DNA of 64,000 bases from Bacteroidota bacterium (GCA_051745635.1 JBNJEH010000003.1:19945-83944); one strand, 5' to 3'; positions 3,912 to 33,777 are shown, numbered from the stretch's first letter. Program-made: numbers and translations. Notes: generated from the sequence alone by a model not told the origin.

Positions 3912-4694
3912 TTGGAAGATTTTAAGAAAAGAATCGTAGTTAAAGTTGGTACGAATGTGATGACCAACAGAAATAATAGAATTGTTGGTCCCATCTTGAA
4001 AAATCTGGTCCGTCAGATCGCTTATCTCTATGAACGGGATATCATCACGATCCTCGTATCTTCGGGATCTGCCATTGCTGGGAAGGAAGTGCTCGGAGAT
4101 TGCCTTGCTGAAGATGCCAGCACGCGCCGACAAATATTTTCATCTGTTGGTCAGCCGCGATTGATGCGCCATTATTATTCCATGTTTCACGATTTTGGGA
4201 TGCGCTGTGCACAGGTATTAGCGACCAAACGGGATTTTGCCCCTGGTAAATACCGCGAAAACATGATCAACTGTTACGAAGGGCTTCTCGCCGAAGGAAT
4301 CATTCCGATTGCCAATGAAGATGACGCCGTTTCGCTCACTATGTCGATGTTTTCGGATAACGATGAACTTGCGAGCCTCGTAGCTGAACTGGTAGATGCT
4401 GAAATGTTGATCATGTTGACGGACATTGACGGACTTTATACTGGTCATCCCAATGATGATGGTTCAGAACTGTTACACCGCGTGAAAGTCAATCAGAACG
4501 TTGAAAAATACGTTCAGGAATCCGACAAAGGAGAAGGCGAAGGCCGAGGAGGCATGGAATCCAAGCTAAAAATTGCTAAATCGACGGCTGGTAAAGAAAT
4601 TCCGACTTATATCGCCAACGGAAAGGAAGAGGATATCATTATCGATATACTCAAAGGCGAAAAAGTAGGAACGAAGTTTATTTCTGAAGATTAA
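3912..4694 (+). CDS. proB: Glutamate 5-kinase (short form, no PUA domain), TTG start
   Basis: IVVKVGTNV, LVSSGSAIAG, GQPRLM, IPIANEDDAV, FSDNDELASLV, GRGGMESKL. Confidence 0.95.
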   Translation: MEDFKKRIVVKVGTNVMTNRNNRIVGPILKNLVRQIAYLYERDIITILVSSGSAIAGKEVLGDCLAEDASTRRQIFSSVGQPRLMRHYYSMFHDFGMRCAQVLATKRDFAPGKYRENMINCYEGLLAEGIIPIANEDDAVSLTMSMFSDNDELASLVAELVDAEMLIMLTDIDGLYTGHPNDDGSELLHRVKVNQNVEKYVQESDKGEGEGRGGMESKLKIAKSTAGKEIPTYIANGKEEDIIIDILKGEKVGTKFISED

Positions 4695-4725: not shown

Positions 4726-5925
4726 ATGAAGTTTTTAAGTACAAACAAGAAAAATGCAGTTTTACAATCGATGATGGATATTATCGATGGCAAAAGAGAA
4801 GAGATTATTGCTGAAAACAAGAAAGATCTGGATGCTTTTCAACGCGACGATCAGGCACTTTACGATCGTTTGGTCGTAGATAGTGCTAAAGTCGATGGGA
4901 TGATTCAGGCGATTCGGGAAGTCAAAGAGCAAGATGACCCCGTAGGAAAAGAGATTTCTTCACGAACGTTGGATACAGGATTGAAAATCATCAATAAAAC
5001 CGATCCTTTTGGAACGATCATGATCATTTATGAATCGCGCCCCGACGTTACGATTGAGGCAGCTGTTCTCGCTTTTAAGGCGAACAATAAAATTTTGCTA
5101 AAAGGCGGTCGCGAAGCATACAACAGCAACAAAGTACTGGTAAAATGCTGGCACGAGGCATTGAAAGCAAACGATCTCGGAGACGAATGGATTAAAATGC
5201 TGGAAATGAATCGCGAAGAGACGCAGGAATTTTTGCGCAACCCAAGTGAAAAACTCGATTTGATTGTGCCGAGAGGCGGTGAAAAATTGATCGAATTTGT
5301 GAAGTTGCATGCAAAATGCGCCGTACTCATTAGTGGTCGCGGTAACAACTTCCTTTATGTTTCACCAAAAGCCGACTGGGCTAAAGCTGTGAAGGTCATT
5401 ATCAATGCGAAAACCGATAAAATTTCTGGTTGTAACGCACTCGATAAGGTACTCGTGGATAAAAACCTCGATGGATACGAAGCTAAATTGCAGGATCTCG
5501 AGGGCGAACTTCAGAAGGCGGGCGTTCATATCGTCGCAGATGATGAAGTTTCTCGCGTATTGAAGGATGCTGAAAAGTTGATTGATGAATCGATCTGGCA
5601 AGAGGAGTTCCTCGCCATGAAGATTTTAATCGGTGCTGTGAATGATCAAAAAGAAGCCATGGATGTTATCAATAAGAACTCCGGACACCACTCGAGCGTT
5701 ATTATGACAGAAGATAGTAGCGAAGCGGAGAAATTCATGCAGCAAGTCGATAGTGCAGCTGTCTATCAAAATGCTTCAACGCGCTTTACTGATGGTGGTC
5801 AAATGGGCGTTGGTGCAGAGTTGGCAATCAGTACTGATAAACTTCACCACCGCGGACCGCTCGGTTTGAAACAGCTGACGACGAACAAATATTACGTCTT
5901 TGGTGATGGTCACATTCGTGAATAA
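4726..5925 (+). CDS. proA: Gamma-glutamyl phosphate reductase
   Basis: PFGTIMIIYESRPDVT, LKGGREA, VPRGGEKLI, SGCNALD (catalytic Cys), NASTRFTDGGQMGVGAELAISTDKLHHRGPLGL. Confidence 0.95.
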   Translation: MKFLSTNKKNAVLQSMMDIIDGKREEIIAENKKDLDAFQRDDQALYDRLVVDSAKVDGMIQAIREVKEQDDPVGKEISSRTLDTGLKIINKTDPFGTIMIIYESRPDVTIEAAVLAFKANNKILLKGGREAYNSNKVLVKCWHEALKANDLGDEWIKMLEMNREETQEFLRNPSEKLDLIVPRGGEKLIEFVKLHAKCAVLISGRGNNFLYVSPKADWAKAVKVIINAKTDKISGCNALDKVLVDKNLDGYEAKLQDLEGELQKAGVHIVADDEVSRVLKDAEKLIDESIWQEEFLAMKILIGAVNDQKEAMDVINKNSGHHSSVIMTEDSSEAEKFMQQVDSAAVYQNASTRFTDGGQMGVGAELAISTDKLHHRGPLGLKQLTTNKYYVFGDGHIRE

Positions 5926-5949
5926 ATAGATACAATTTAAAGTATATTC

Positions 5950-5983
5950 AAGGGTCGGGGTTTTTGAAATCCCGGCCTTTTTT
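5950..5983 (+). terminator. Intrinsic terminator of the pro operon
   Basis: AGGGTCGGG / CCCGGCCTT stem followed by a T run, 25 nt after the proA stop. Confidence 0.75.
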
Positions 5984-25902: not shown

Positions 25903-26528
25903 TGAAAGGCGTTTCTATCGTTGGAATTGGCACGGATGTAGGTAAAACTGTAGTCAGTGCAATTATTTCGGAAGCATTGGGTGCGCGTTATTTTAAGCCT
26001 GCACAAGCCGGAGACCTCAATAATTCGGACAGCATGAAGGTGGATCGATTGACCAGTGATCGCGTAACCATCGCCCCGGAAGCATTTCGTTTAAAAACAC
26101 CAATGGCCCCACACGGCGCTGCAAAAATCGACGGCGTCGAAATGCGCGTTTCCGATATTCAGTTTCCGCAATCGGATCAACCAATTGTACTGGAAGGAGC
26201 CGGCGGTCTCATGGTTCCCTTGAACGAACACGACGAAACTTTTCTGGATATATACAAGAAATCGGGACTTCCGGTAGTGGTAGTTTCAAGACATTATTTG
26301 GGGAGTATTAATCACACCTTGTTGACGATTGATCGCTTGAAACTTGAAGGGTTGAACATTCTCGGAATCGTTTTTGTCGGTGATGAAAATGAAGTCACAG
26401 AATCGATCGTCGAGCACAACACCGGTGTTCAGCAACTGGCGAGAATTCCCTGGGCAGAAGAGCTGAACCTGGATTTCGTTAAAACACAAGCAGAAAAATT
26501 AAAAGGATTAGTATATGAACTTAGTTGA
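25899..26528 (+). CDS. bioD: Dethiobiotin synthase
   Basis: GIGTDVGKTVVS P-loop, YFKPAQAG, LEGAGGLMVPL, YLGSINHTLL. Confidence 0.95.
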   Translation: MMKGVSIVGIGTDVGKTVVSAIISEALGARYFKPAQAGDLNNSDSMKVDRLTSDRVTIAPEAFRLKTPMAPHGAAKIDGVEMRVSDIQFPQSDQPIVLEGAGGLMVPLNEHDETFLDIYKKSGLPVVVVSRHYLGSINHTLLTIDRLKLEGLNILGIVFVGDENEVTESIVEHNTGVQQLARIPWAEELNLDFVKTQAEKLKGLVYELS

Positions 26529-27792
26529 ACGCGATCGCAATGTTGTTTGGCATCCCTTTACACAAGCCCAGACGGACAGACCACCATTGCCCATTGTTAA
26601 GGCAGAAGGGAGTGTGTTGACGGACGAAGCCGGAAAAGAGTACATCGACTGCAACTCGTCGTGGTGGGTGAATGTTCATGGTCATGCTCATCCGCACATC
26701 GCACAAGCGATTAATCAGCAGTTTCAGGCGATCGATCATGTCGTACTGGCGGGAGCCACACATCCCAAAGTAGTAGAGCTCGGAGAACGGATGGTAGATG
26801 TACTTCCCGGCGACTTTTCAAAAGTGTTCTTTTCCGACAACGGGAGTACCGCAGTAGAAATCGCAATTAAAATGGTACTGCAATATTGGTTCAATCAGTC
26901 GATTCCCAAAAAGCGCTTCCTGGCGTTGGAAGGCGGTTACCACGGCGATACCTTCGGGGCGATGAGCCTTGGACAGCGCGGTTATTTCAACAAACCATTT
27001 GAGGATTTTTTCTTTGAGACCGATTATCTGCCTTTTCCAACAGAAGAACGGGAAGCAGCATGCCTGGAAAAAGCGGAAGCATTTTTTAAATCGGGTGAAT
27101 TTGCCGGCGTCATCGTCGAACCATTGGTGCAGGGGAGTTCAGGTATGCAGATGTACCGCCCCGAATTTCTCAACCAATTGCTCAAACTCGCAAAACAGTA
27201 CGATGTCCTTTTTATTTTCGATGAAGTGATGACAGGATGGGGCAGAACGGGTAAAATGTTTGCCATGGATCATTGTGATGACACGCCCGATATCGTTTGT
27301 TTATCCAAGGGAATTACCGGGGGAACGCTGCCGTTGGGCCTTACGGTAACCAAAGAACATATTTTTGAGGCCTTTTTGCACGACGAAAAAATCAAAGCGC
27401 TATTGCACGGTCATTCTTATACGGGGAACCCGCTGGCATGTGCCGCGGCGTGTGCTTCGCTCGATATTTTTGAAACACAGGAAAGTCGCGAAAATATTCA
27501 ACGCATTTGCGATCGGCATACAACTTTTCGAGAACGGCTTTCGGGCAATTATCGTTTGCGTTCCCTGCGACAGTTCGGAACAATTTTAGCGATTGAAATT
27601 GAAGTAGGGGATGGAGGTTCTTATTTTTCTTCCATTCGTGAGGAGGCGCTGGAATATTTTTATGAACACGGCATGTTATTGCGCCCACTGGGGAACGTCA
27701 TATTTTTAAATCCTCCTTATTGCACGACCAATGAACAATTGGATTATTGCTATGACAAGATCGAGGCGTTTTTAAAGGAGAAGGCGGTTTAG
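26515..27792 (+). CDS. bioA: Adenosylmethionine--8-amino-7-oxononanoate transaminase
   Basis: VWHPFTQ, SSWWVNVHGH, FSDNGSTAVEIAIKM, YHGDTFGAMS, FDEVMTGWGRTG, LSKGITGG (PLP Lys). Confidence 0.96.
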   Translation: MNLVERDRNVVWHPFTQAQTDRPPLPIVKAEGSVLTDEAGKEYIDCNSSWWVNVHGHAHPHIAQAINQQFQAIDHVVLAGATHPKVVELGERMVDVLPGDFSKVFFSDNGSTAVEIAIKMVLQYWFNQSIPKKRFLALEGGYHGDTFGAMSLGQRGYFNKPFEDFFFETDYLPFPTEEREAACLEKAEAFFKSGEFAGVIVEPLVQGSSGMQMYRPEFLNQLLKLAKQYDVLFIFDEVMTGWGRTGKMFAMDHCDDTPDIVCLSKGITGGTLPLGLTVTKEHIFEAFLHDEKIKALLHGHSYTGNPLACAAACASLDIFETQESRENIQRICDRHTTFRERLSGNYRLRSLRQFGTILAIEIEVGDGGSYFSSIREEALEYFYEHGMLLRPLGNVIFLNPPYCTTNEQLDYCYDKIEAFLKEKAV

Positions 27793-27989
27793 GTTTTTAT
27801 ATTGTATGTTGATCATCATGCGATTGGAGTGGTTTGGCTGAGATCGCAAACCCGTTTGATCAGTAGTGGAAAGTGCTTGGTATTGCTTATTTCTGCCTCA
27901 TTTGTCAAAGTTGAATTTTGACCACTGATTTATTATTTCGCATCACTGAATCATTAAAATCTACAGATCAGCACTTTACTCTTTTTCTA

Positions 27990-28060
27990 TCCCAGCTCCG
28001 CTGCAGGTCTTGCCTCGACGCTTACAGATCGGGACAACAGGATCTGCAGCGAAGCTGGGA
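27990..28060. repeat. Hairpin/MITE-like element with 20-bp terminal inverted repeats (repeat family R, copy 1)
   Basis: TCCCAGCTCCGCTGCAGGTC ... GATCTGCAGCGAAGCTGGGA (18/20 complementary); the left arm recurs at 29846 and 31570. Confidence 0.8.
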
Positions 28061-28283
28061 GGGCAAAGTTAGATGTAACGAATACAAATAAAATCAGAAT
28101 AATATGTCCCCTAAACAATCCCATAAGTATGAAGTTACTAATCTACAATTATTATTTTATTGTAGAATGAATAGATAAAGACTTGACTGTCTTGAGTAAG
28201 CCTTTCGCATTAATTGGGAACTTCATTTAAATTTCTAATTGAATTAAATGTCGTAACAAAAGAAGATTAGATAATGAAAACGA

Positions 28284-29393
28284 TTAAACATTATTTTCAT
28301 TAAATTCTATAGATGCAATTTCTTCTTTATGTCGTCTTTTAATTCGTTTTAAAAACCTGAATAACCCTATAATTGTAAAAATAAACAATAAAAACACCAA
28401 GTAAGATCCCCATGGATAAACGTTTGCTAAAAGTATAACAGATGCTGTCGAAGCCACTGTAAATAAAAGGATAAATAAACCTGTATTTACCTTTTTACCC
28501 ATAATTACGAATCCATTTAAGTATCTACCCACATTTTTTAGAAAAAATATATAACTAAAAAGTAAAAGAAAAAACCCTAGACCTCTATACAGCCATATTT
28601 TAAAGATATATTCTTCGCTCATTTCTTTAATTGCTCCTTCCTGAGTACCTATAAAAGAGCGATAGAACTTCGTTCTTTTATTATAATAAGGAACAATTTG
28701 ATTGTTAGTCTGGTCAAACAAGCCAAATAAAGTTACATCATTTAACGGGTTTTTTAGTACGGAATAACTTACTCTTATATCACCAATTTGAGGGTTTTGG
28801 TATGTTCCTTTTCCATGAAACAAAAATTTGCTATTGGCAATTTCAAAATTATTTCTTTTGATTATATTACCTGAACCAATTGCTAATATTTGGTGTTCGG
28901 GAAGGTCTAAAAGATTCATGTCAACATTATAGTTTCCAAGTTTTGCTTTACCAACTTGGACTTCATTGTTTTGAATTAGTTTTTCTGGATTGAAGTGATT
29001 GTCAGGGTTCTTAAATTTTAAAGAATTAGCAGGTCTTGAAGTCCATATTTTAGAATAACTATATTTTTTTCTTCTTTTTCCCCTGTTAGTTGTTTCTTTC
29101 CAAGAGTACATTTCAACTTTTCTAATAAGGGACAAATAATTTCCTGACACTAAAAAAGTATCTCCAATGGACTCTTCAGTTTTTAAAGTACCGTTCGCAA
29201 AAACGAGTTTATTATCAAATTTTTTAGGGATTTCTTTATTGGGGTCAACTTCTTTTGCTTTTCTTGCAATTTTCGAGAAATCTACTCGACTTTCATTAGA
29301 ATTTAAGATTCCAAAAGCGATCATCATAAAAAAAATAGAAACTATTATCAATATAATGTTTGGATAAATGCGTACTTTCCTTTTTGATCTCAT
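28284..29393 (-). CDS. TMEM43/DUF1625 family membrane protein (AT-rich)
   Basis: N-terminal TM, LIRKVEMYSWKE, YSKIWTS....S..F....H.NP, PQIGDIRVSYS and three C-terminal TM helices. GC is clearly lower than in flanking genes (25% in a sampled 60-mer). Confidence 0.75.
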   Translation of the reverse strand: MRSKRKVRIYPNIILIIVSIFFMMIAFGILNSNESRVDFSKIARKAKEVDPNKEIPKKFDNKLVFANGTLKTEESIGDTFLVSGNYLSLIRKVEMYSWKETTNRGKRRKKYSYSKIWTSRPANSLKFKNPDNHFNPEKLIQNNEVQVGKAKLGNYNVDMNLLDLPEHQILAIGSGNIIKRNNFEIANSKFLFHGKGTYQNPQIGDIRVSYSVLKNPLNDVTLFGLFDQTNNQIVPYYNKRTKFYRSFIGTQEGAIKEMSEEYIFKIWLYRGLGFFLLLFSYIFFLKNVGRYLNGFVIMGKKVNTGLFILLFTVASTASVILLANVYPWGSYLVFLLFIFTIIGLFRFLKRIKRRHKEEIASIEFNENNV

Positions 29394-29399
29394 AATGTT

Positions 29400-29845
29400 T
29401 GGACTTGCCTAACTTTTCTGTAGACCTAATTAAGCTACATGACGAAAATAATCATCTTTATTGATTTTCTCAAACTCTTGCACTGATTTCATTCTGATAG
29501 AGCTGTGAATTCGCTTTATGTTATACCAAACTTCAATGTAATGAAACAGATCAATTTTAGCTTGATCCTTGGTTAAATAATGTGTTTGATAAACTCTTTC
29601 GACCTTCATTGTCTTAAAAAAACTTTCTGCTACTGCGTTGTCCCAACAGTTTCCTTTTCTTGACATACTTTGAGTTATTAAATGGTCTTTTAAAAGATTT
29701 CTAAACGCATTACAAGCGTATTGAACACCTCTATCAGAATGAAAAATTAGCGGTTTTAAAACGGGTCTATTACTTTTAGCCATTCTCCATGCTGGCATTA
29801 TTGTCTCAATTGCTTTCATACCCTTACTGAAAGACCATCCTATCA
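29400..29845 (-). mobile_element. IS3-family insertion sequence remnant (3' part of OrfB plus right end)
   Basis: IGWS..., IFHSDRGVQY, QSMSRKGNCWDNAVAESFFKTMK and YIEVWYNIKRIHSSI are IS3 integrase-core motifs. The terminus ...GTCTAC...AAGTCCA ends at 29400. The 5' part is missing. Confidence 0.88.
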
Positions 29846-29951
29846 TCCCAGCTCCGCTGCAGGCTTGTCCCGATTTTGAATCGTGCCTGTCTCGATTTAT
29901 ACATAGAGAGTGCACTGCTGCGCTATTAAACATTAACTTAAGTCAATAGCC
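29846..29951 (+). repeat. 106-bp direct repeat (family R, copy 2)
   Basis: 98/106 identical to 31570-31675 by hand comparison; the first 18 nt match the left arm at 27990. Confidence 0.9.
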
Positions 29952-30124
29952 TTATTTCTAACTCAAAATATTTCATTAACTTCATGTAAACCAACAATAA
30001 CCACCATAATGAACAAATGAGAAAAACACACCATTAAAAAGAACGCGACTAATTAGAGCCACGACCACGAGAAGTACCACGAAGTAGCACCGAAGGTAAT
30101 CTCGCGGCAGGGTGGGAACTATAA

Positions 30125-30166
30125 AATGACGGAATTTAAATAAATTACGCTATCATAATGACGGAA
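30125..30166 (+). promoter_or_regulatory. Tandem direct repeat AATGACGGAA x2 (32-bp period), putative operator
   Basis: Identical decamers at 30125-30134 and 30157-30166, just upstream of a TATATTAG -7-like box and the ATPase start. Confidence 0.45.
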
Positions 30167-30207
30167 ATCATATGAAAAACGTATATTAGTAAAGTAAAAA
30201 CGAATTC

Positions 30208-31350
30208 ATGAAGTTCATAAATAGATCCATAGAAGACACAGTTAGAAAATCACTCAAACCCAATAAAGTCGTCATTATTTTAGGAGCAAGAAGAGTTGGT
30301 AAGACAGAATTGATTAAGAGAATTCTTCAAGATGTTGATATGGAGGTATTAAACTTGAATGGTGAAGATGAAGCGGTTCATTCGCTACTTGAGACAAGGT
30401 CAGTCCGTAATTACAAACAGCTACTAGGTAAAGCTGAAATGTTAATCATCGATGAAGCTCAAGTTATTCCTGAAATAGGAAAGAAGCTCAAATTAATGGT
30501 AGATTCAATAGACGGACTGAAGGTCCTGGTTTCTGGATCTTCAGTATTCGATATGAATAATCAGCTTGGAGAACCGCTGGTAGGAAGAAGCATTCCTTTA
30601 CATTTATACCCACTTTCTCAGATTGAGTATGCTCAAAACGAGAATCTATTGGAAACAAAATCAATACTTGAGGAGCGGTTAATATTTGGAAGTTATCCCG
30701 AATTGGAACAGCTGGGGTCGAGAGAAGAGAAAGTGGATTACTTAAAGGAGATTGTTAATTCCTATTTGTTTAAGGACATTCTAGCTTTTGAAGGTATTCG
30801 AAAAAGAGAAAAGATTGTTGCTTTACTACGTATGATCGCATTTAGAGTAGGTAGCGAAATTTCGATTGAAAGCATCGGTAATAAGCTCCAAATGAGTAAA
30901 ACCACAGTAGATAAGTACTTAGATCTATTGTCAAAGGTATTTATTATTCACAGGGTGGGTGGTTTCAGCAGAAACCTTGATAACGAAATAACTAAAAAGG
31001 CAAAATGGTATTTTTACGATAATGGGATAAGAAATGCACTGATCAATAACTTTAACTTGTTAAATGTTCGTGATGATCATGGTAAAATATGGGAGAATTA
31101 CTTGATCTCAGAACGCCTTAAAAAACAAGCATATGAAGGCCCTCAAAGTTTGAATTATTTTTGGAGAACTCATACAAAGCAAGAAATTGATTGGGTTGAG
31201 GAAATTGGGGGTAAGCTCCATGCTTATGAGTTTAAATGGAATGCAAAAACTGCAGCCAAGACTAAAGTTCCGGCTTCATGGAAAAAAGCATATCCAGAAG
31301 CTTCTTTTAAAGTAATTCATCCGGATAACTATTTGGACTTTATCACTTAA
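30208..31350 (+). CDS. AAA_14 ATP-binding protein with DUF4143 domain
   Basis: Walker A ILGARRVGKT, Walker B LIIDEAQ, SGSS, LVGR, GSYP, KWYFYDNGIRN, GKIWEN, YFWRT...EIDWV...AYEFKW. Confidence 0.92.
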   Translation: MKFINRSIEDTVRKSLKPNKVVIILGARRVGKTELIKRILQDVDMEVLNLNGEDEAVHSLLETRSVRNYKQLLGKAEMLIIDEAQVIPEIGKKLKLMVDSIDGLKVLVSGSSVFDMNNQLGEPLVGRSIPLHLYPLSQIEYAQNENLLETKSILEERLIFGSYPELEQLGSREEKVDYLKEIVNSYLFKDILAFEGIRKREKIVALLRMIAFRVGSEISIESIGNKLQMSKTTVDKYLDLLSKVFIIHRVGGFSRNLDNEITKKAKWYFYDNGIRNALINNFNLLNVRDDHGKIWENYLISERLKKQAYEGPQSLNYFWRTHTKQEIDWVEEIGGKLHAYEFKWNAKTAAKTKVPASWKKAYPEASFKVIHPDNYLDFIT

Positions 31351-31569
31351 AAGAAAGGCGAACAAGGCAACAAAGCTAAGTATAGAACCCACCTTAAGTA
31401 TTAACTAAGAATGAAAAATCGAAAAAACCTCTTTACTAAACACTGGATGGCGGATAAACAGGTGAAATGGTCCCACGAACTAAACCACCCAAATCGTTCA
31501 ATATTTTCTATTTTTTTTGCTGAAACACATTCCCTCAAAAACAATTACCATTGCCCCATGCGCATAACT

Positions 31570-31675
31570 CCCCGGCTCCGCTGCAGGCTTCTCCCGATTT
31601 TACATCGTGCCTGTCTCGATTTATACATAGAGAGTGCACCGCTGCGCTATTAAACATTAACTTTATTCAATAGCC
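31570..31675 (+). repeat. 106-bp direct repeat (family R, copy 3)
   Basis: Near-identical to 29846-29951. Confidence 0.9.
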
Positions 31676-31728
31676 ATACTTCCCATCACGTTCGCGGGGA
31701 GATGAATAAGTAATTCTTAACCCTGACT

Positions 31729-33777
31729 TTACTTCTTTTTGTTTTTCATTTTCTCCTGTTGTGCTTTCTGCATTTCTTCGAGGCGCGCCTGGAACTTGGA
31801 TTTCCCTTTTTTACCTCCTTTTTGCTTGTTCTCTTTTTTGGCCGCCATTTTTCCTTTTAATTTCTCTTCATCCACGAAGTAGTTTTTAATCAACAACATG
31901 GTAAGGATGGAAATTAACGTGGAAATAAAGTAGTAATAACTCAGCCCTGATGCATAATTATTGAAGAAAAAGATCATCATGATCGGGAAGAAGTACATGA
32001 TAATTTTCATGTTCGGCATTCCGGGTTGTGAAGGCTGCTGCATATTACTGCTGTTTAAAACCGTGTAGAACAGCGTCGTTCCTGCCATCAACAGCGTAAA
32101 CAAACTGATGTGATCACCGTAAAAAGGAATGTTAAAGCCGAGGTCGACAATGGAGTCATAGCTCGATAAATCTTCTGCCCACAAGAAACTCTCCTGTCGA
32201 AGTGTAAAACTGCTCGGGAAAAAGCGGAAAACGGCGAATAAAATAGGCATCTGGATCAACATCGGAACACAACCGGAAAGTGGACTCGCACCAGATTCGC
32301 GGTAAAGCGTCATCGTTTCCATTTGCTTTTTCATGGCGTCCTCCTTGTCGGGATATTTCTTATTGATTTCCTCGATTTCTGGCTTGAGTATGCGCATTTT
32401 AGCTGACGACGTGTACATTTTCCACTGAATGGGTGTGAGCACTAACTTTACTATAAAAGTCAGCAGTAGAATGGCAATACCCAGGTTCATGCCGTAGCCG
32501 GCCAGCCAGTTAAAAATCGGTTGAATAGCGTACACGTTGATCCATCTGAACAATCCCCAACCGAGATTAATAATGTCCTCCGAACCATTGCCGTATGCCG
32601 TGAGCAGATCGTAATCGTTGGGTCCAAAATACCAGGTCATTTGCGCACGACCATCTCGTGTATCATTTAGATTCAGGTTCATACTGGATGTGTACTTCTT
32701 AATGTGCGTTGAATCTTTTTCAGAGCCTTCCTGGTAAGTTTCAATTTTAAAGTTGGTTCCCGATTTATTAAATGATTTTTCCGGCATGAGAATACTCGAG
32801 AAATAACTCTGTTTGAACGCTACCCAATCGACATCTGTTTCTGCCGCAAATTGGTCGTCCGAGTATTCTGATAAATAGTCGTATGAACCATTTTTCTCCT
32901 TAAAGAAGACAGTCGATGTTCTTCGCTGCTCGGAGAGCAGGCGCTCCGTCTTAAACATTTCTGCGTTCCAGTTCAATTTGACATTCTCAGGCATTACTTT
33001 TCCCTGCAAATTCTTAACATAGATTTCGTAGTTAATATGATAGGCCTCCGGAGCGATAGAGTAGTGGAACTCGATGCGTTCGTCATTTTGAATCGCCGCA
33101 GAAAGGATAATTTCGTTCTCTGACTCTTCTTTGATTTCAAAAGGGAGATGACCCGTTTCTATGGTTTCGCCATCCCGTTTAAAAACGAGTTGATTCGTCG
33201 CCTGTTTAGCGTCAAACAATTGCAGCGGCTCAATCTTTTCGTTCTTATTGTCCGGTTCGTAATTATCGTAAGTCTGGTGCTTTTTGAGAAAAACGGATTT
33301 AACTCCTCCTCCTTTATTAGTCAAAATGACCTTTAAATTTTCATTTTCCAGCTCCAGCTCGCGTGGTTCGAAATTCGCTTTTTGCTGTTTATCGGCTGTT
33401 TCGACAGCAGTAGGTTCCGGTGCAAATACCGTGTCCTGACGCGTTTCTTCGTCTACGTAGATCATGCGCGAACGGTCATCTTTCACAATGTTATTCGCTT
33501 CGTCGCGGACAATTGTATATCCCTCAATGGTTGGTAGACTACTCGCGTTTTTAGTCGTGTCAGCGGTGTTTGTCGTATCACCCTCCGCAATTTCCTCTTT
33601 GCTATTCGCCTGCTCAGACGCACTATCGGAAGCGCTTTTGTTTTCTTCCTGCGCTTCTTGTTGTTCCATTTTAGCTTTCTGCGCTGCTTTTTCAGCTTCT
33701 GTCGGCTGATTGAAATAAGTAAACATCGCTAAAATAACGCCAATGATACCGAGACCTATAATTGTATTTCTATCCAT
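31729..33777 (-). CDS. yidC: Membrane protein insertase YidC
   Basis: MDRNTIIG N-terminal TM, periplasmic domain, YFGPND, GIAILLLTFIVKL, MRILKPEIEEI, SGCVPMLIQMPI, FLWAEDLSSYD, GLSYYY. Confidence 0.95.
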   Translation of the reverse strand: MDRNTIIGLGIIGVILAMFTYFNQPTEAEKAAQKAKMEQQEAQEENKSASDSASEQANSKEEIAEGDTTNTADTTKNASSLPTIEGYTIVRDEANNIVKDDRSRMIYVDEETRQDTVFAPEPTAVETADKQQKANFEPRELELENENLKVILTNKGGGVKSVFLKKHQTYDNYEPDNKNEKIEPLQLFDAKQATNQLVFKRDGETIETGHLPFEIKEESENEIILSAAIQNDERIEFHYSIAPEAYHINYEIYVKNLQGKVMPENVKLNWNAEMFKTERLLSEQRRTSTVFFKEKNGSYDYLSEYSDDQFAAETDVDWVAFKQSYFSSILMPEKSFNKSGTNFKIETYQEGSEKDSTHIKKYTSSMNLNLNDTRDGRAQMTWYFGPNDYDLLTAYGNGSEDIINLGWGLFRWINVYAIQPIFNWLAGYGMNLGIAILLLTFIVKLVLTPIQWKMYTSSAKMRILKPEIEEINKKYPDKEDAMKKQMETMTLYRESGASPLSGCVPMLIQMPILFAVFRFFPSSFTLRQESFLWAEDLSSYDSIVDLGFNIPFYGDHISLFTLLMAGTTLFYTVLNSSNMQQPSQPGMPNMKIIMYFFPIMMIFFFNNYASGLSYYYFISTLISILTMLLIKNYFVDEEKLKGKMAAKKENKQKGGKKGKSKFQARLEEMQKAQQEKMKNKKK

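What the first reader, a model, noticed from the sequence alone, without database searches (positions are those of the whole stretch)
27990..31675. Accessory island split into gene-sized modules by three copies of one repeat (cassette-like, no integrase)
Seen: between bioA and yidC the order is R1 (27990, full hairpin), TMEM43 homolog, IS3 remnant, R2 (29846), AAA-DUF4143 gene, R3 (31570). R2 and R3 are 106-bp direct repeats (98/106 identical), all three start with CCC.GCTCCGCTGCAGG, and the cargo is AT-rich relative to the flanks. Inference: the repeats act as recombination or capture sites, so R2-R3 could excise the 1.7-kb ATPase unit and the locus may collect genes in a REP/MITE-mediated, integron-like way. 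Simple independent REP insertions into an AT-rich hotspot are the alternative.
Basis: partly seen in the sequence, partly recalled or inferred. Interest (0 to 1): 0.65.

Follow-up and report, generated by a model that had tools for sequence, protein, structure and literature searches.

The report
Mosaic gene islet bounded by short mobile repeats
Between two housekeeping genes of a lake Flavobacteriales bacterium lies a 3.7-kb patch of foreign, AT-rich genes whose pieces are separated by three copies of a rare short repeat that behaves like a small mobile element marking rearrangement breakpoints, not like a demonstrated integron-type gene-capture system.

Summary
R1 (27990-28060) is a strong 71-nt hairpin. 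R2 (29846-29958) and R3 (31570-31682) are 112-nt direct repeats, 92% alike. All share one ~30-nt core, and the cargo is 27-37% GC against 44-47% in the flanks. The cargo is a rare TMEM43-family gene, the 3' stump of an IS3 cut exactly at R2, and an AAA_14-DUF4143 ATPase that matches the candidate defence family PDC-S01.

A sister species has bioA and yidC 465 nt apart, with no islet and no R. In four metagenomes that hold this strain at 30-74x, no other contig matches R, so R is not a genome-wide REP family here. In two related lake metagenomes, both R types occur with other flanks, and the breakpoints that could be resolved fall exactly on R ends.

Evidence against an integron-like system:
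- R2 and R3 do not fold.
- No recombinase lies in the 64 kb.
- The genes point in opposite directions.
- No R2-R3 deletion or circle joint was seen.
- The ATPase's closest homologue sits beside two tyrosine recombinases without any R.

Best reading (about 0.5): a low-copy MITE/REPIN-like family whose ends are recombination-active at a strain-variable hotspot. Site-specific capture remains possible (about 0.15).

The parts
26515..27792 (+). bioA (class-III aminotransferase). Conserved left flank of the hotspot.
   Evidence: Pfam Aminotran_3, E 1e-98. Adjacent to yidC in the sister species.
27990..28060 (.). R1: 71-nt hairpin made of two inverted copies of the ~30-nt R core (MITE/REPIN-like doublet), 61% GC.
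   Evidence: DNA fold -22.8 kcal/mol, z -5. Arms aligned. Copies spanning 27992-28060 with other flanks in X6 and X9. An RNA contig runs through it.
28120..28128 (.). Target site (9 bp) of a further insertion present in only part of the population in runs X4 and X5.
   Evidence: Contigs break at 28120 and 28128, overlapping by 9 nt, with inverted-repeat-like loose ends. An uninterrupted 51-nt contig coexists.
28284..29393 (-). TMEM43/DUF1625-family membrane protein, 29% GC, rare gene.
   Evidence: Pfam TMEM43, E 2e-31. Only 12 homologues at E<1e-20. The nearest is 56% identical, at another locus in a Brumimicrobium MAG. RNA contigs cover it.
29400..29845 (-). 3' stump of an IS3-family element. 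The terminal repeat starts TGGACTTGCC at 29400, and the stump is cut exactly at the outer end of R2.
   Evidence: NCBIfam transpos_IS3 positions 246-369 of 369. Other IS3 copies in the runs continue CTTTTCTATCAAATAGATCG beyond 29845.
29846..29958 (+). R2: 112-113-nt single-core copy of the R family.
   Evidence: No significant fold. In X6 the same R2 and its right side have a different left flank starting at 29846.
30049..30107 (.). Another short repeat, found with other flanks in X6 and X9.
   Evidence: Contigs match only 30049-30123 or 30064-30107, with unrelated sequence on both sides.
30113..30200 (+). Conserved upstream region of the ATPase, with repeated RTGACGGAAWTTAAATAAA motifs (30125-30149, 30157-30181).
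   Evidence: Direct repeat D4. The same motif is repeated upstream of homologues in L103, L117 and L118.
30208..31350 (+). AAA_14-DUF4143 ATPase, matching the PADLOC candidate defence family PDC-S01.
   Evidence: Pfam. PADLOC PDC-S01, E 7e-156, full length. The family is described as unvalidated in PMC12988326.
31570..31682 (+). R3: second 112-113-nt single-core copy, 46 nt from the yidC stop.
   Evidence: The junctions ATPase-downstream/R3 and R3/yidC flank are conserved in the X9 relative. An RNA contig 31571-31864 ends at its outer end.
31729..33777 (-). yidC. Conserved right flank of the hotspot.
   Evidence: Pfam 60KD_IMP and YidC_periplas. Relatives listed.

Best explanation
The convergent bioA/yidC spacer of this Crocinitomicaceae (Brumimicrobium-like) lake bacterium is a strain-variable insertion hotspot. 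It has filled with a decaying mosaic of foreign DNA: a rare TMEM43-family gene, an IS3 stump and a PDC-S01-type candidate defence ATPase.

The 'R' copies belong to a small, previously uncatalogued family of short non-coding mobile repeats built on one ~30-nt core. R1 is an inverted doublet, that is a hairpin of MITE/REPIN type. R2 and R3 are 112-nt single-core copies.

Inferred mechanism:
- The elements are moved or cut by an enzyme encoded elsewhere, not in this window.
- Their outer ends are recombination-active, so insertions, end-adjacent deletions and recombination between copies place module boundaries exactly at R ends.
- This is how IS3 came to be cut at R2, and why relatives carry other DNA at the same point.
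- R2 and R3, 8% diverged, are an old pair formed either by local re-insertion or by recombination at a resident copy.

Shown: the anatomy, the low copy number in this strain, copies at other loci in relatives, and breakpoints at R ends. Inferred: the enzyme, and whether the events were transposition, adjacent deletion or homologous exchange.
For: Anatomy and statistics.

Ancestral state. Four assemblies of a sister species (YidC 86% identical) have yidC and bioA 465-466 nt apart, with an unrelated spacer and no R.

Discrete element ends.
- R1-type copies spanning 27992-28060 sit between other flanks in X6 and X9.
- An R2/R3-type copy in X9 has different DNA on both sides.

Breakpoints at R ends.
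- IS3 homology stops at 29845, and intact copies run on.
- The X6 relative keeps R2 and the ATPase but has other DNA left of 29846, and lacks TMEM43.
- In the X9 relative the bioA flank diverges at 27990.
- The X6 and X9 R1-type copies share a right flank but differ on the left.

Hotspot behaviour. A further polymorphic insertion with a 9-bp duplication lies at 28120-28128.

R is not intrinsic to the cargo. The 93% ATPase homologue shares only 30113-31411 and has no R, and other homologues have no flanking long repeats. The nearest TMEM43 homologue sits at another locus without R.

Background. Earlier notes describe the genome as rich in other MITEs.
Against: - R2 and R3 lack terminal inverted repeats, and no target-site duplication is visible at any copy, so they are not textbook MITEs.
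- Only three copies exist in this strain, all within 3.7 kb. This is unusual for a transposing family and fits a locus-specific site better.
- No transposase with matching ends was found.
- Exact-pattern scans of GTDB species genomes, JGI metagenome contigs and viral contigs gave only chance hits.
- The evidence from relatives rests on short, low-depth Logan contigs (2.6-13x) and 13-30-nt loose ends. Linkage of pieces to one genome is therefore inferred from depth alone.
Confidence: 0.5

Rival explanations
1. Site-specific capture. The R core is the recombination site of a recombinase acting in trans. Units of the form 'R + gene(s)' are inserted one after another at a resident R next to yidC, and can excise as circles. 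This would be an integron-, pdif-module- or CIME-like system without a linked integrase.
For: - R is confined to the islet in this strain.
- Cores of R1-left, R2 and R3 point the same way.
- Three or four resolved synteny breakpoints fall exactly on R ends, typically with one side conserved and the other variable.
- R3 and its junctions are conserved next to yidC in X9.
- The closest ATPase homologue lies directly after two tyrosine recombinase genes in L103, and an X6 contig shows the same adjacency.
- An imperfect 11-7-11 palindrome (GCTATTAAACA TTAACTT TATTCAATAGC) lies in the R3 tail. This is my own reading and is weak in AT-rich DNA.
Against: - No recombinase lies in the 64 kb.
- R2 and R3 do not fold.
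- The cargo genes are in opposite orientation.
- One 'cassette' ends in a truncated IS3, which a precise cassette system would not produce.
- No deletion or circle joint appears in four deep metagenomes, although contigs hide rare forms.
- L103 has no R.
- An R2/R3-type copy in X9 has unrelated DNA on both sides.
- The tail palindrome does not match the dif consensus (own knowledge).
Confidence: 0.15
2. One-off duplication with passive repeats. A single R lay next to yidC. DNA carrying a second R plus the ATPase entered by homologous (Campbell-type or double-crossover) recombination after transfer. Alternatively the segment was duplicated. R has no activity of its own, and the breakpoints reflect ordinary homologous exchange and deletion.
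For: - R2 and R3 share the whole 112 nt, including the AT-rich tail, in direct orientation, as a single crossover would give.
- Their 8% divergence shows an old event.
- The R3/yidC junction is conserved in X9.
- No enzyme was found.
Against: - Homologous exchange does not explain why IS3 is cut at the first base of R2.
- It does not explain why different DNA abuts exactly that base in X6.
- It does not explain why R1-type copies with precise ends sit in other flanks.
Confidence: 0.2
3. R elements are mainly functional RNA or regulatory modules, such as transcript-end hairpins or 3'UTR elements between convergent genes. They would be retained for that role. This is compatible with a mobile origin.
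For: - R1 lies between the convergent bioA and TMEM43 genes and is a very stable hairpin.
- R3 lies 46 nt after yidC.
- A metatranscriptome contig covers 31571-31864 and stops at the outer end of R3, and another runs through R1.
Against: - No U-tract follows any R, and none is flagged by the terminator scan.
- There is no Rfam match above noise.
- R2 lies upstream of a gene, not at a transcript end.
- The RNA evidence is two or three low-depth contigs.
Confidence: 0.1

Closest known systems
Prokaryotic MITEs and REP/REPIN elements (REP singlets and inverted doublets moved by RAYT Y1 transposases). Bertels and Rainey 2011 from own knowledge. MITE survey PMC11602168 (title and abstract seen, not read).
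   Same: Short, non-coding and GC-rich relative to their surroundings, with precise ends. One core occurs as an inverted doublet that forms a long hairpin (R1) and as single copies (R2, R3). Copies lie at unrelated loci in related genomes. No coding capacity.
   Different: Three copies instead of tens to hundreds. The singlets carry an 80-nt non-palindromic extension. No target duplication was seen, and no RAYT or matching transposase was found in the window. The genome was not searchable.
Neisseria minimal mobile elements, and the intergenic mosaic elements (dRS3/RS arrays) and Correia elements found at such sites (own knowledge).
   Same: A fixed site between two conserved genes holds alternative gene units in different strains. 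Short repeats sit at the unit boundaries and act as rearrangement and insertion points.
   Different: Different phylum and unrelated sequence. In Neisseria the exchange is driven by transformation and flanking homology. Here the mechanism is unknown, and only fragments of the alternative alleles were seen.
pdif modules of Acinetobacter plasmids and integron gene cassettes (own knowledge).
   Same: Gene-sized modules separated by copies of a short site. The recombinase may act in trans.
   Different: R does not resemble the 11-6-11 dif consensus. R2 and R3 have no attC-type hairpin. No IntI or attI is present. The cargo orientation is mixed, and an IS stump lies inside a 'module'.
IS26-type pseudo-compound transposons and adjacent deletions by replicative transposon ends (own knowledge).
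   Same: Directly repeated copies separate modules. Neighbouring DNA is truncated exactly at the element's terminal base. There are no target duplications.
   Different: R encodes nothing and is about 70-112 nt. No cognate transposase is known.

Membership tests
Integron / attC cassette array | Adjacent intI tyrosine recombinase with attI | tested here: not met
   No Phage_integrase hit in any ORF of at least 140 aa in the 64-kb window. The only rve hit is the IS3 stump.
Integron / attC cassette array | Each cassette ends in an imperfect-palindrome attC that folds on one strand (R''-L''...L'-R') | tested here: not met
   R2 and R3 have fold z-scores of -0.15 to -1.0 on both strands. Only R1 folds, and it lacks GTTRRRY/RYYYAAC ends in its stem (sequence).
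Integron / attC cassette array | Cassettes mostly co-oriented, each a single promoterless ORF | tested here: not met
   TMEM43 and the IS3 stump are on the - strand and the ATPase on the + strand. The ATPase carries its own conserved upstream motif.
REP / REPIN-RAYT | High copy number dispersed through the genome | tested here: not met
   In four metagenomes holding the strain at 30-74x, no contig other than the islet's matches R1 or R2 at 80% likeness or better.
REP / REPIN-RAYT | Inverted doublets of one short core forming a hairpin, alongside singlets | tested here: met
   R1 consists of two inverted cores, and R2 and R3 each have one core.
REP / REPIN-RAYT | A RAYT (Y1 transposase) gene flanked by the repeats | not testable with these tools
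   None in the window.
MITE | Short non-coding element with terminal inverted repeats | tested here: inconclusive
   R1 has 17-nt (up to about 30-nt) inverted ends. R2 and R3 have only a degenerate match (CTGCTGCGCT) to the inverted core and end in an unrelated AT-rich tail.
MITE | Target-site duplication | tested here: not met
   No matching short repeats flank R1, R2, R3 or the X6/X9 copies, as far as 13-30-nt flanks show.
MITE | Copies at unrelated loci with precise common ends | tested here: met
   X6 and X9 contigs show R1-type copies spanning 27992-28060 and an R2/R3-type copy from 31572, each with other flanks. This was not seen in this strain itself.
Xer/dif (pdif) modules | 28-nt 11-6-11 site matching the dif consensus at each module boundary | tested here: not met
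   Only an 11-7-11 imperfect palindrome lies in the R2/R3 tail. Its arms are unlike the dif consensus (recalled from own knowledge), and it is absent from R1 (reading).
Integrative element / CIME with att direct repeats | Direct repeats flanking the element that derive from an attB target (often a tRNA 3' end), with a related integrase element | tested here: inconclusive
   R2 and R3 are direct repeats. No tRNA lies within 20 kb. The related integrase-bearing element L103 has no R.
PDC-S01 candidate defence gene (cargo) | Full-length match to the PADLOC PDC-S01 model, AAA ATPase plus PD-(D/E)XK-type tail | tested here: met
   PDLC04789, E 6.7e-156, positions 1-379 of 380. Pfam AAA_14 + DUF4143. 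Defence activity is itself unvalidated (PMC12988326).

The most novel reading that the evidence does not exclude
The ~30-nt R core is the site of a recombinase or transposase acting in trans. This enzyme builds and reshuffles a small cassette array at bioA/yidC in Crocinitomicaceae. Units of 'R + gene' are inserted at a resident R, giving a Bacteroidota analogue of integron or pdif-module gene capture that works on defence and accessory genes without a linked integrase.
Probability: 0.15. Interest if true: 0.75.

Novelty: new member of a known kind. Interest (0 to 1): 0.38.

Why it matters
If R is just a low-copy MITE/REPIN-like family, the locus is a tidy example of a known process. Short mobile repeats seed breakpoints at a hotspot between core genes, where candidate defence genes (PDC-S01) come and go. 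That is useful for annotation but not surprising.

It would matter more if the R core proves to be a dedicated recombination site. Modular, integrase-unlinked gene capture is known mainly from integrons and Acinetobacter pdif modules, and no equivalent is established in Bacteroidota.

The data also give a concrete, testable prediction. Across lake strains, differences in the bioA-yidC interval should start and stop at the terminal base of an R core.

Tried and rejected
- Exact-pattern scans for the R end in GTDB species genomes, JGI metagenome contigs and viral contigs. All hits extend no more than 23 nt and are chance matches. The window's own genome is not in those collections.
- BLASTN of the islet against plasmids and phages: only weak IS3 transposase matches, or none.
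- Rfam at E up to 1: only noise, such as mir-2300 at 28 bits against a threshold of 90.
- tRNA or tmRNA as an att target: none within 20 kb.
- attC-like folding of R2 and R3: rejected.
- Intrinsic terminator role: none of the R copies is flagged.
- R as part of the ATPase's own mobile unit: rejected. Homology with the 93% homologue covers only 30113-31411. L103, L117 and L118 lack R and lack long flanking repeats.
- R as ancestral spacer sequence: rejected, because the sister-species spacer is unrelated.
- My first reading, that X9's R3 had a different left flank, was wrong. One search showed that copy also has a different right flank (another locus), while X9's true R3 keeps both window junctions.
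- Depth as a test for loss of the R2-R3 unit: inconclusive. The unit sits at 0.78-0.86x of the flanks in X1-X3 but 1.09x in X4. Contig word depth cannot separate bias from a subpopulation.
- dif-like reading of the R2/R3 tail palindrome: too weak in AT-rich DNA to count.
Full report
**Observation**

The region was read directly.
- R2 (29847-29958) and R3 (31571-31682) are direct repeats of 112 nt at 92% identity, 1724 nt apart. BLAST gives 101 nt at 94%.
- R1 and R2 share the identical 19-mer ATCCCAGCTCCGCTGCAGG, and R3 matches it at 84%.
- The 13-mer GCTCCGCTGCAGG with up to 2 mismatches occurs 5 times in 64 kb against 0.59 expected. Four of these lie in the islet, one being the inverted arm of R1.
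- R1 (27990-28060) folds into a hairpin of -22.8 kcal/mol (z = -5) on either strand. R2 and R3 fold no better than shuffles.
- Aligning the ends shows one ~30-nt core, TCCCAGCTYCGCTGCAG(1-5 nt)YTTGYCYCGA. R1 carries two inverted copies, and R2 and R3 carry one each in the same direction, followed by about 80 nt of other sequence.
- GC falls to 27-37% between R1 and R3, against 44-50% in bioA and about 41-45% in yidC.
bioA, a TMEM43-family protein, an IS3 integrase-core stump, an AAA_14-DUF4143 ATPase and yidC are all confirmed.

**What the cargo is**

- The ATPase matches the PADLOC candidate defence family PDC-S01 over its full length (E 7e-156). The literature describes this family as very common but experimentally unvalidated: an ATPase fused to a PD-(D/E)XK-type domain (PMC12988326; candidates defined in bioRxiv 10.1101/2024.01.29.577857).
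- The TMEM43-family protein is rare, with 12 hits at E<1e-20 in 5.8 billion proteins. The nearest is 56% identical, in a Brumimicrobium MAG at a different locus between rbfA and an Omp85 gene.
- The IS3 stump keeps its terminal repeat at 29400 and positions 246-369 of the 369-position transposase model. Other IS3 copies in the same metagenomes continue CTTTTCTATCAAATAGATCG beyond 29845. The stump is therefore cut exactly where R2 begins.

**Ancestral state**

YidC relatives place the organism in the Crocinitomicaceae, near Brumimicrobium. The nearest other species has YidC 86% identical. In four independent assemblies it has yidC and bioA convergent and 465-466 nt apart. Its spacer shares nothing with the islet or with R. 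The islet is therefore an insertion or replacement in the window's lineage.

**Is R a genome-wide repeat?**

- Four lake metagenomes (X1-X4) hold this strain at 99-100% identity and 30-74x.
- One contig runs straight through R1 in X1-X3. At 80% likeness, the only contigs matching R1 or R2 are those of this locus.
- Within the 64-kb window there are no further copies.
- Exact-pattern scans of GTDB species genomes, JGI metagenome contigs and viral contigs gave only chance matches of 23 nt or less. Plasmid and phage collections gave nothing for R.

R is thus a rare, lineage-restricted family. In this strain it is confined to the islet.

**Relatives in other lakes**

Runs X6 and X9 hold relatives about 97-98% identical in the flanks.

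In X6:
- The bioA flank runs into an exact R1 left arm.
- TMEM43 is absent (depth 0 over 28185-29283).
- R2 plus the ATPase region is present, but the 29-30 nt left of position 29846 are different DNA (ATCCTTTATCAAATACAGCTATTTTTCCTT) instead of the IS3 stump.

In X9:
- The bioA flank diverges at 27990, exactly where R1 starts.
- The junctions ATPase-downstream/R3 and R3/yidC flank are as in the window.

Both runs also hold an R1-type copy (27992-28060) with another right flank, which the two runs share, and with different left flanks.

X9 holds an R2/R3-type copy with unrelated DNA on both sides. Strong identity runs for 82 nt and about 62% identity for the remaining 30.

Two conclusions follow:
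- Both R types are discrete elements with precise ends that can sit at other loci.
- The synteny breakpoints that could be resolved fall on R ends.

These inferences rest on short, low-depth contigs and 13-30-nt loose ends. Assigning the pieces to one genome relies on similar depth only.

**Tests of the capture idea**

Against it:
- No integrase, Y1 transposase or other transposase lies in any ORF of at least 140 aa of the window, apart from the IS3 stump.
- R2 and R3 have no attC-like fold.
- The cargo genes face opposite ways.
- One 'module' ends in a truncated IS.
- No R2-R3 deletion or circle joint appears in the contigs of X1-X4. The 1748-1754-nt contigs that begin and end in R are simply de Bruijn breaks at the shared 32-mer.
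- The ATPase's 93% homologue (L103) shares only 30113-31411 with the window and carries no R.
- More distant homologues have no long flanking repeats.

For it:
- R is confined to the locus.
- The cores are co-oriented.
- Breakpoints sit at R ends.
- L103 and an X6 contig place this ATPase directly after two tyrosine recombinase genes. A recombinase-borne origin of the unit is therefore plausible.

**Verdict**

The most likely reading (about 0.5) is a low-copy MITE/REPIN-like repeat family whose ends are recombination-active. It sits in a strain-variable hotspot that also took a further polymorphic insertion at 28120-28128. The rivals are:
- passive repeats left by a single homologous integration (about 0.2);
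- true site-specific capture (about 0.15);
- a mainly regulatory RNA role (about 0.1, and not exclusive of the others).

Its inference that R marks recombination points is supported. The integron-like mechanism is not shown, and several of its defining features fail.

Noticed in passing
window 28120-28128: In runs X4 and X5 part of the population carries an extra insertion here with a 9-bp target duplication. The insert ends read CATTAGTGGGCGAAGAAAATC... and ...TTAATCGCCCGCTAGTG (10 of 12 inverted). The uninterrupted allele coexists.
   Followed up: partly
window 30113-30200; L103 9874-10000; L117 about 5780-5960; L118 about 4220-4310: The PDC-S01-type ATPase family carries a conserved upstream motif, RTGACGGAAWTTAAATAAA, repeated 2-3 times at about 32-64-nt spacing in four homologues of 67-86% DNA identity. 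It looks like an operator. In L103 it follows directly after a tyrosine recombinase gene, so it could instead be recombinase arm sites.
   Followed up: partly
window 30049-30107: A 45-75-nt stretch (ccacgaccacgagaagtaccacgaagtagcaccgaagg...) occurs in X6 and X9 contigs with unrelated sequence on both sides. It is a third short dispersed repeat inside the islet.
   Followed up: no
window 31571-31864 and 27904-28122: Salt-lake metatranscriptome contigs at 100% identity. One covers the yidC 3' end and stops exactly at the outer end of R3, and another runs through the whole R1 hairpin. The TMEM43 gene and the ATPase 3' half also have RNA contigs.
   Followed up: partly
window 29400-29845: Copies of this IS3, about 91% identical, reach 330-370x word depth in runs X3 and X4. 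That is 5-10 times the host strain's depth, so the IS is multi-copy or belongs to a more abundant organism.
   Followed up: no
L103 1-13411 (Logan contig, 93% ATPase homologue): A mobile-element-like neighbourhood holds a Fic protein, an HTH_17 excisionase-like gene, a 767-aa protein without Pfam hits and two adjacent tyrosine recombinases, then the ATPase. It is possibly a recombinase-pair element carrying a defence gene.
   Followed up: no
window 28284-29393: The bacterial TMEM43/DUF1625 homologue is very rare in the 5.8-billion-protein collection (12 hits). Here it is expressed (RNA contigs), 29% GC, and has an IS3 end 7 nt from its start codon.
   Followed up: partly
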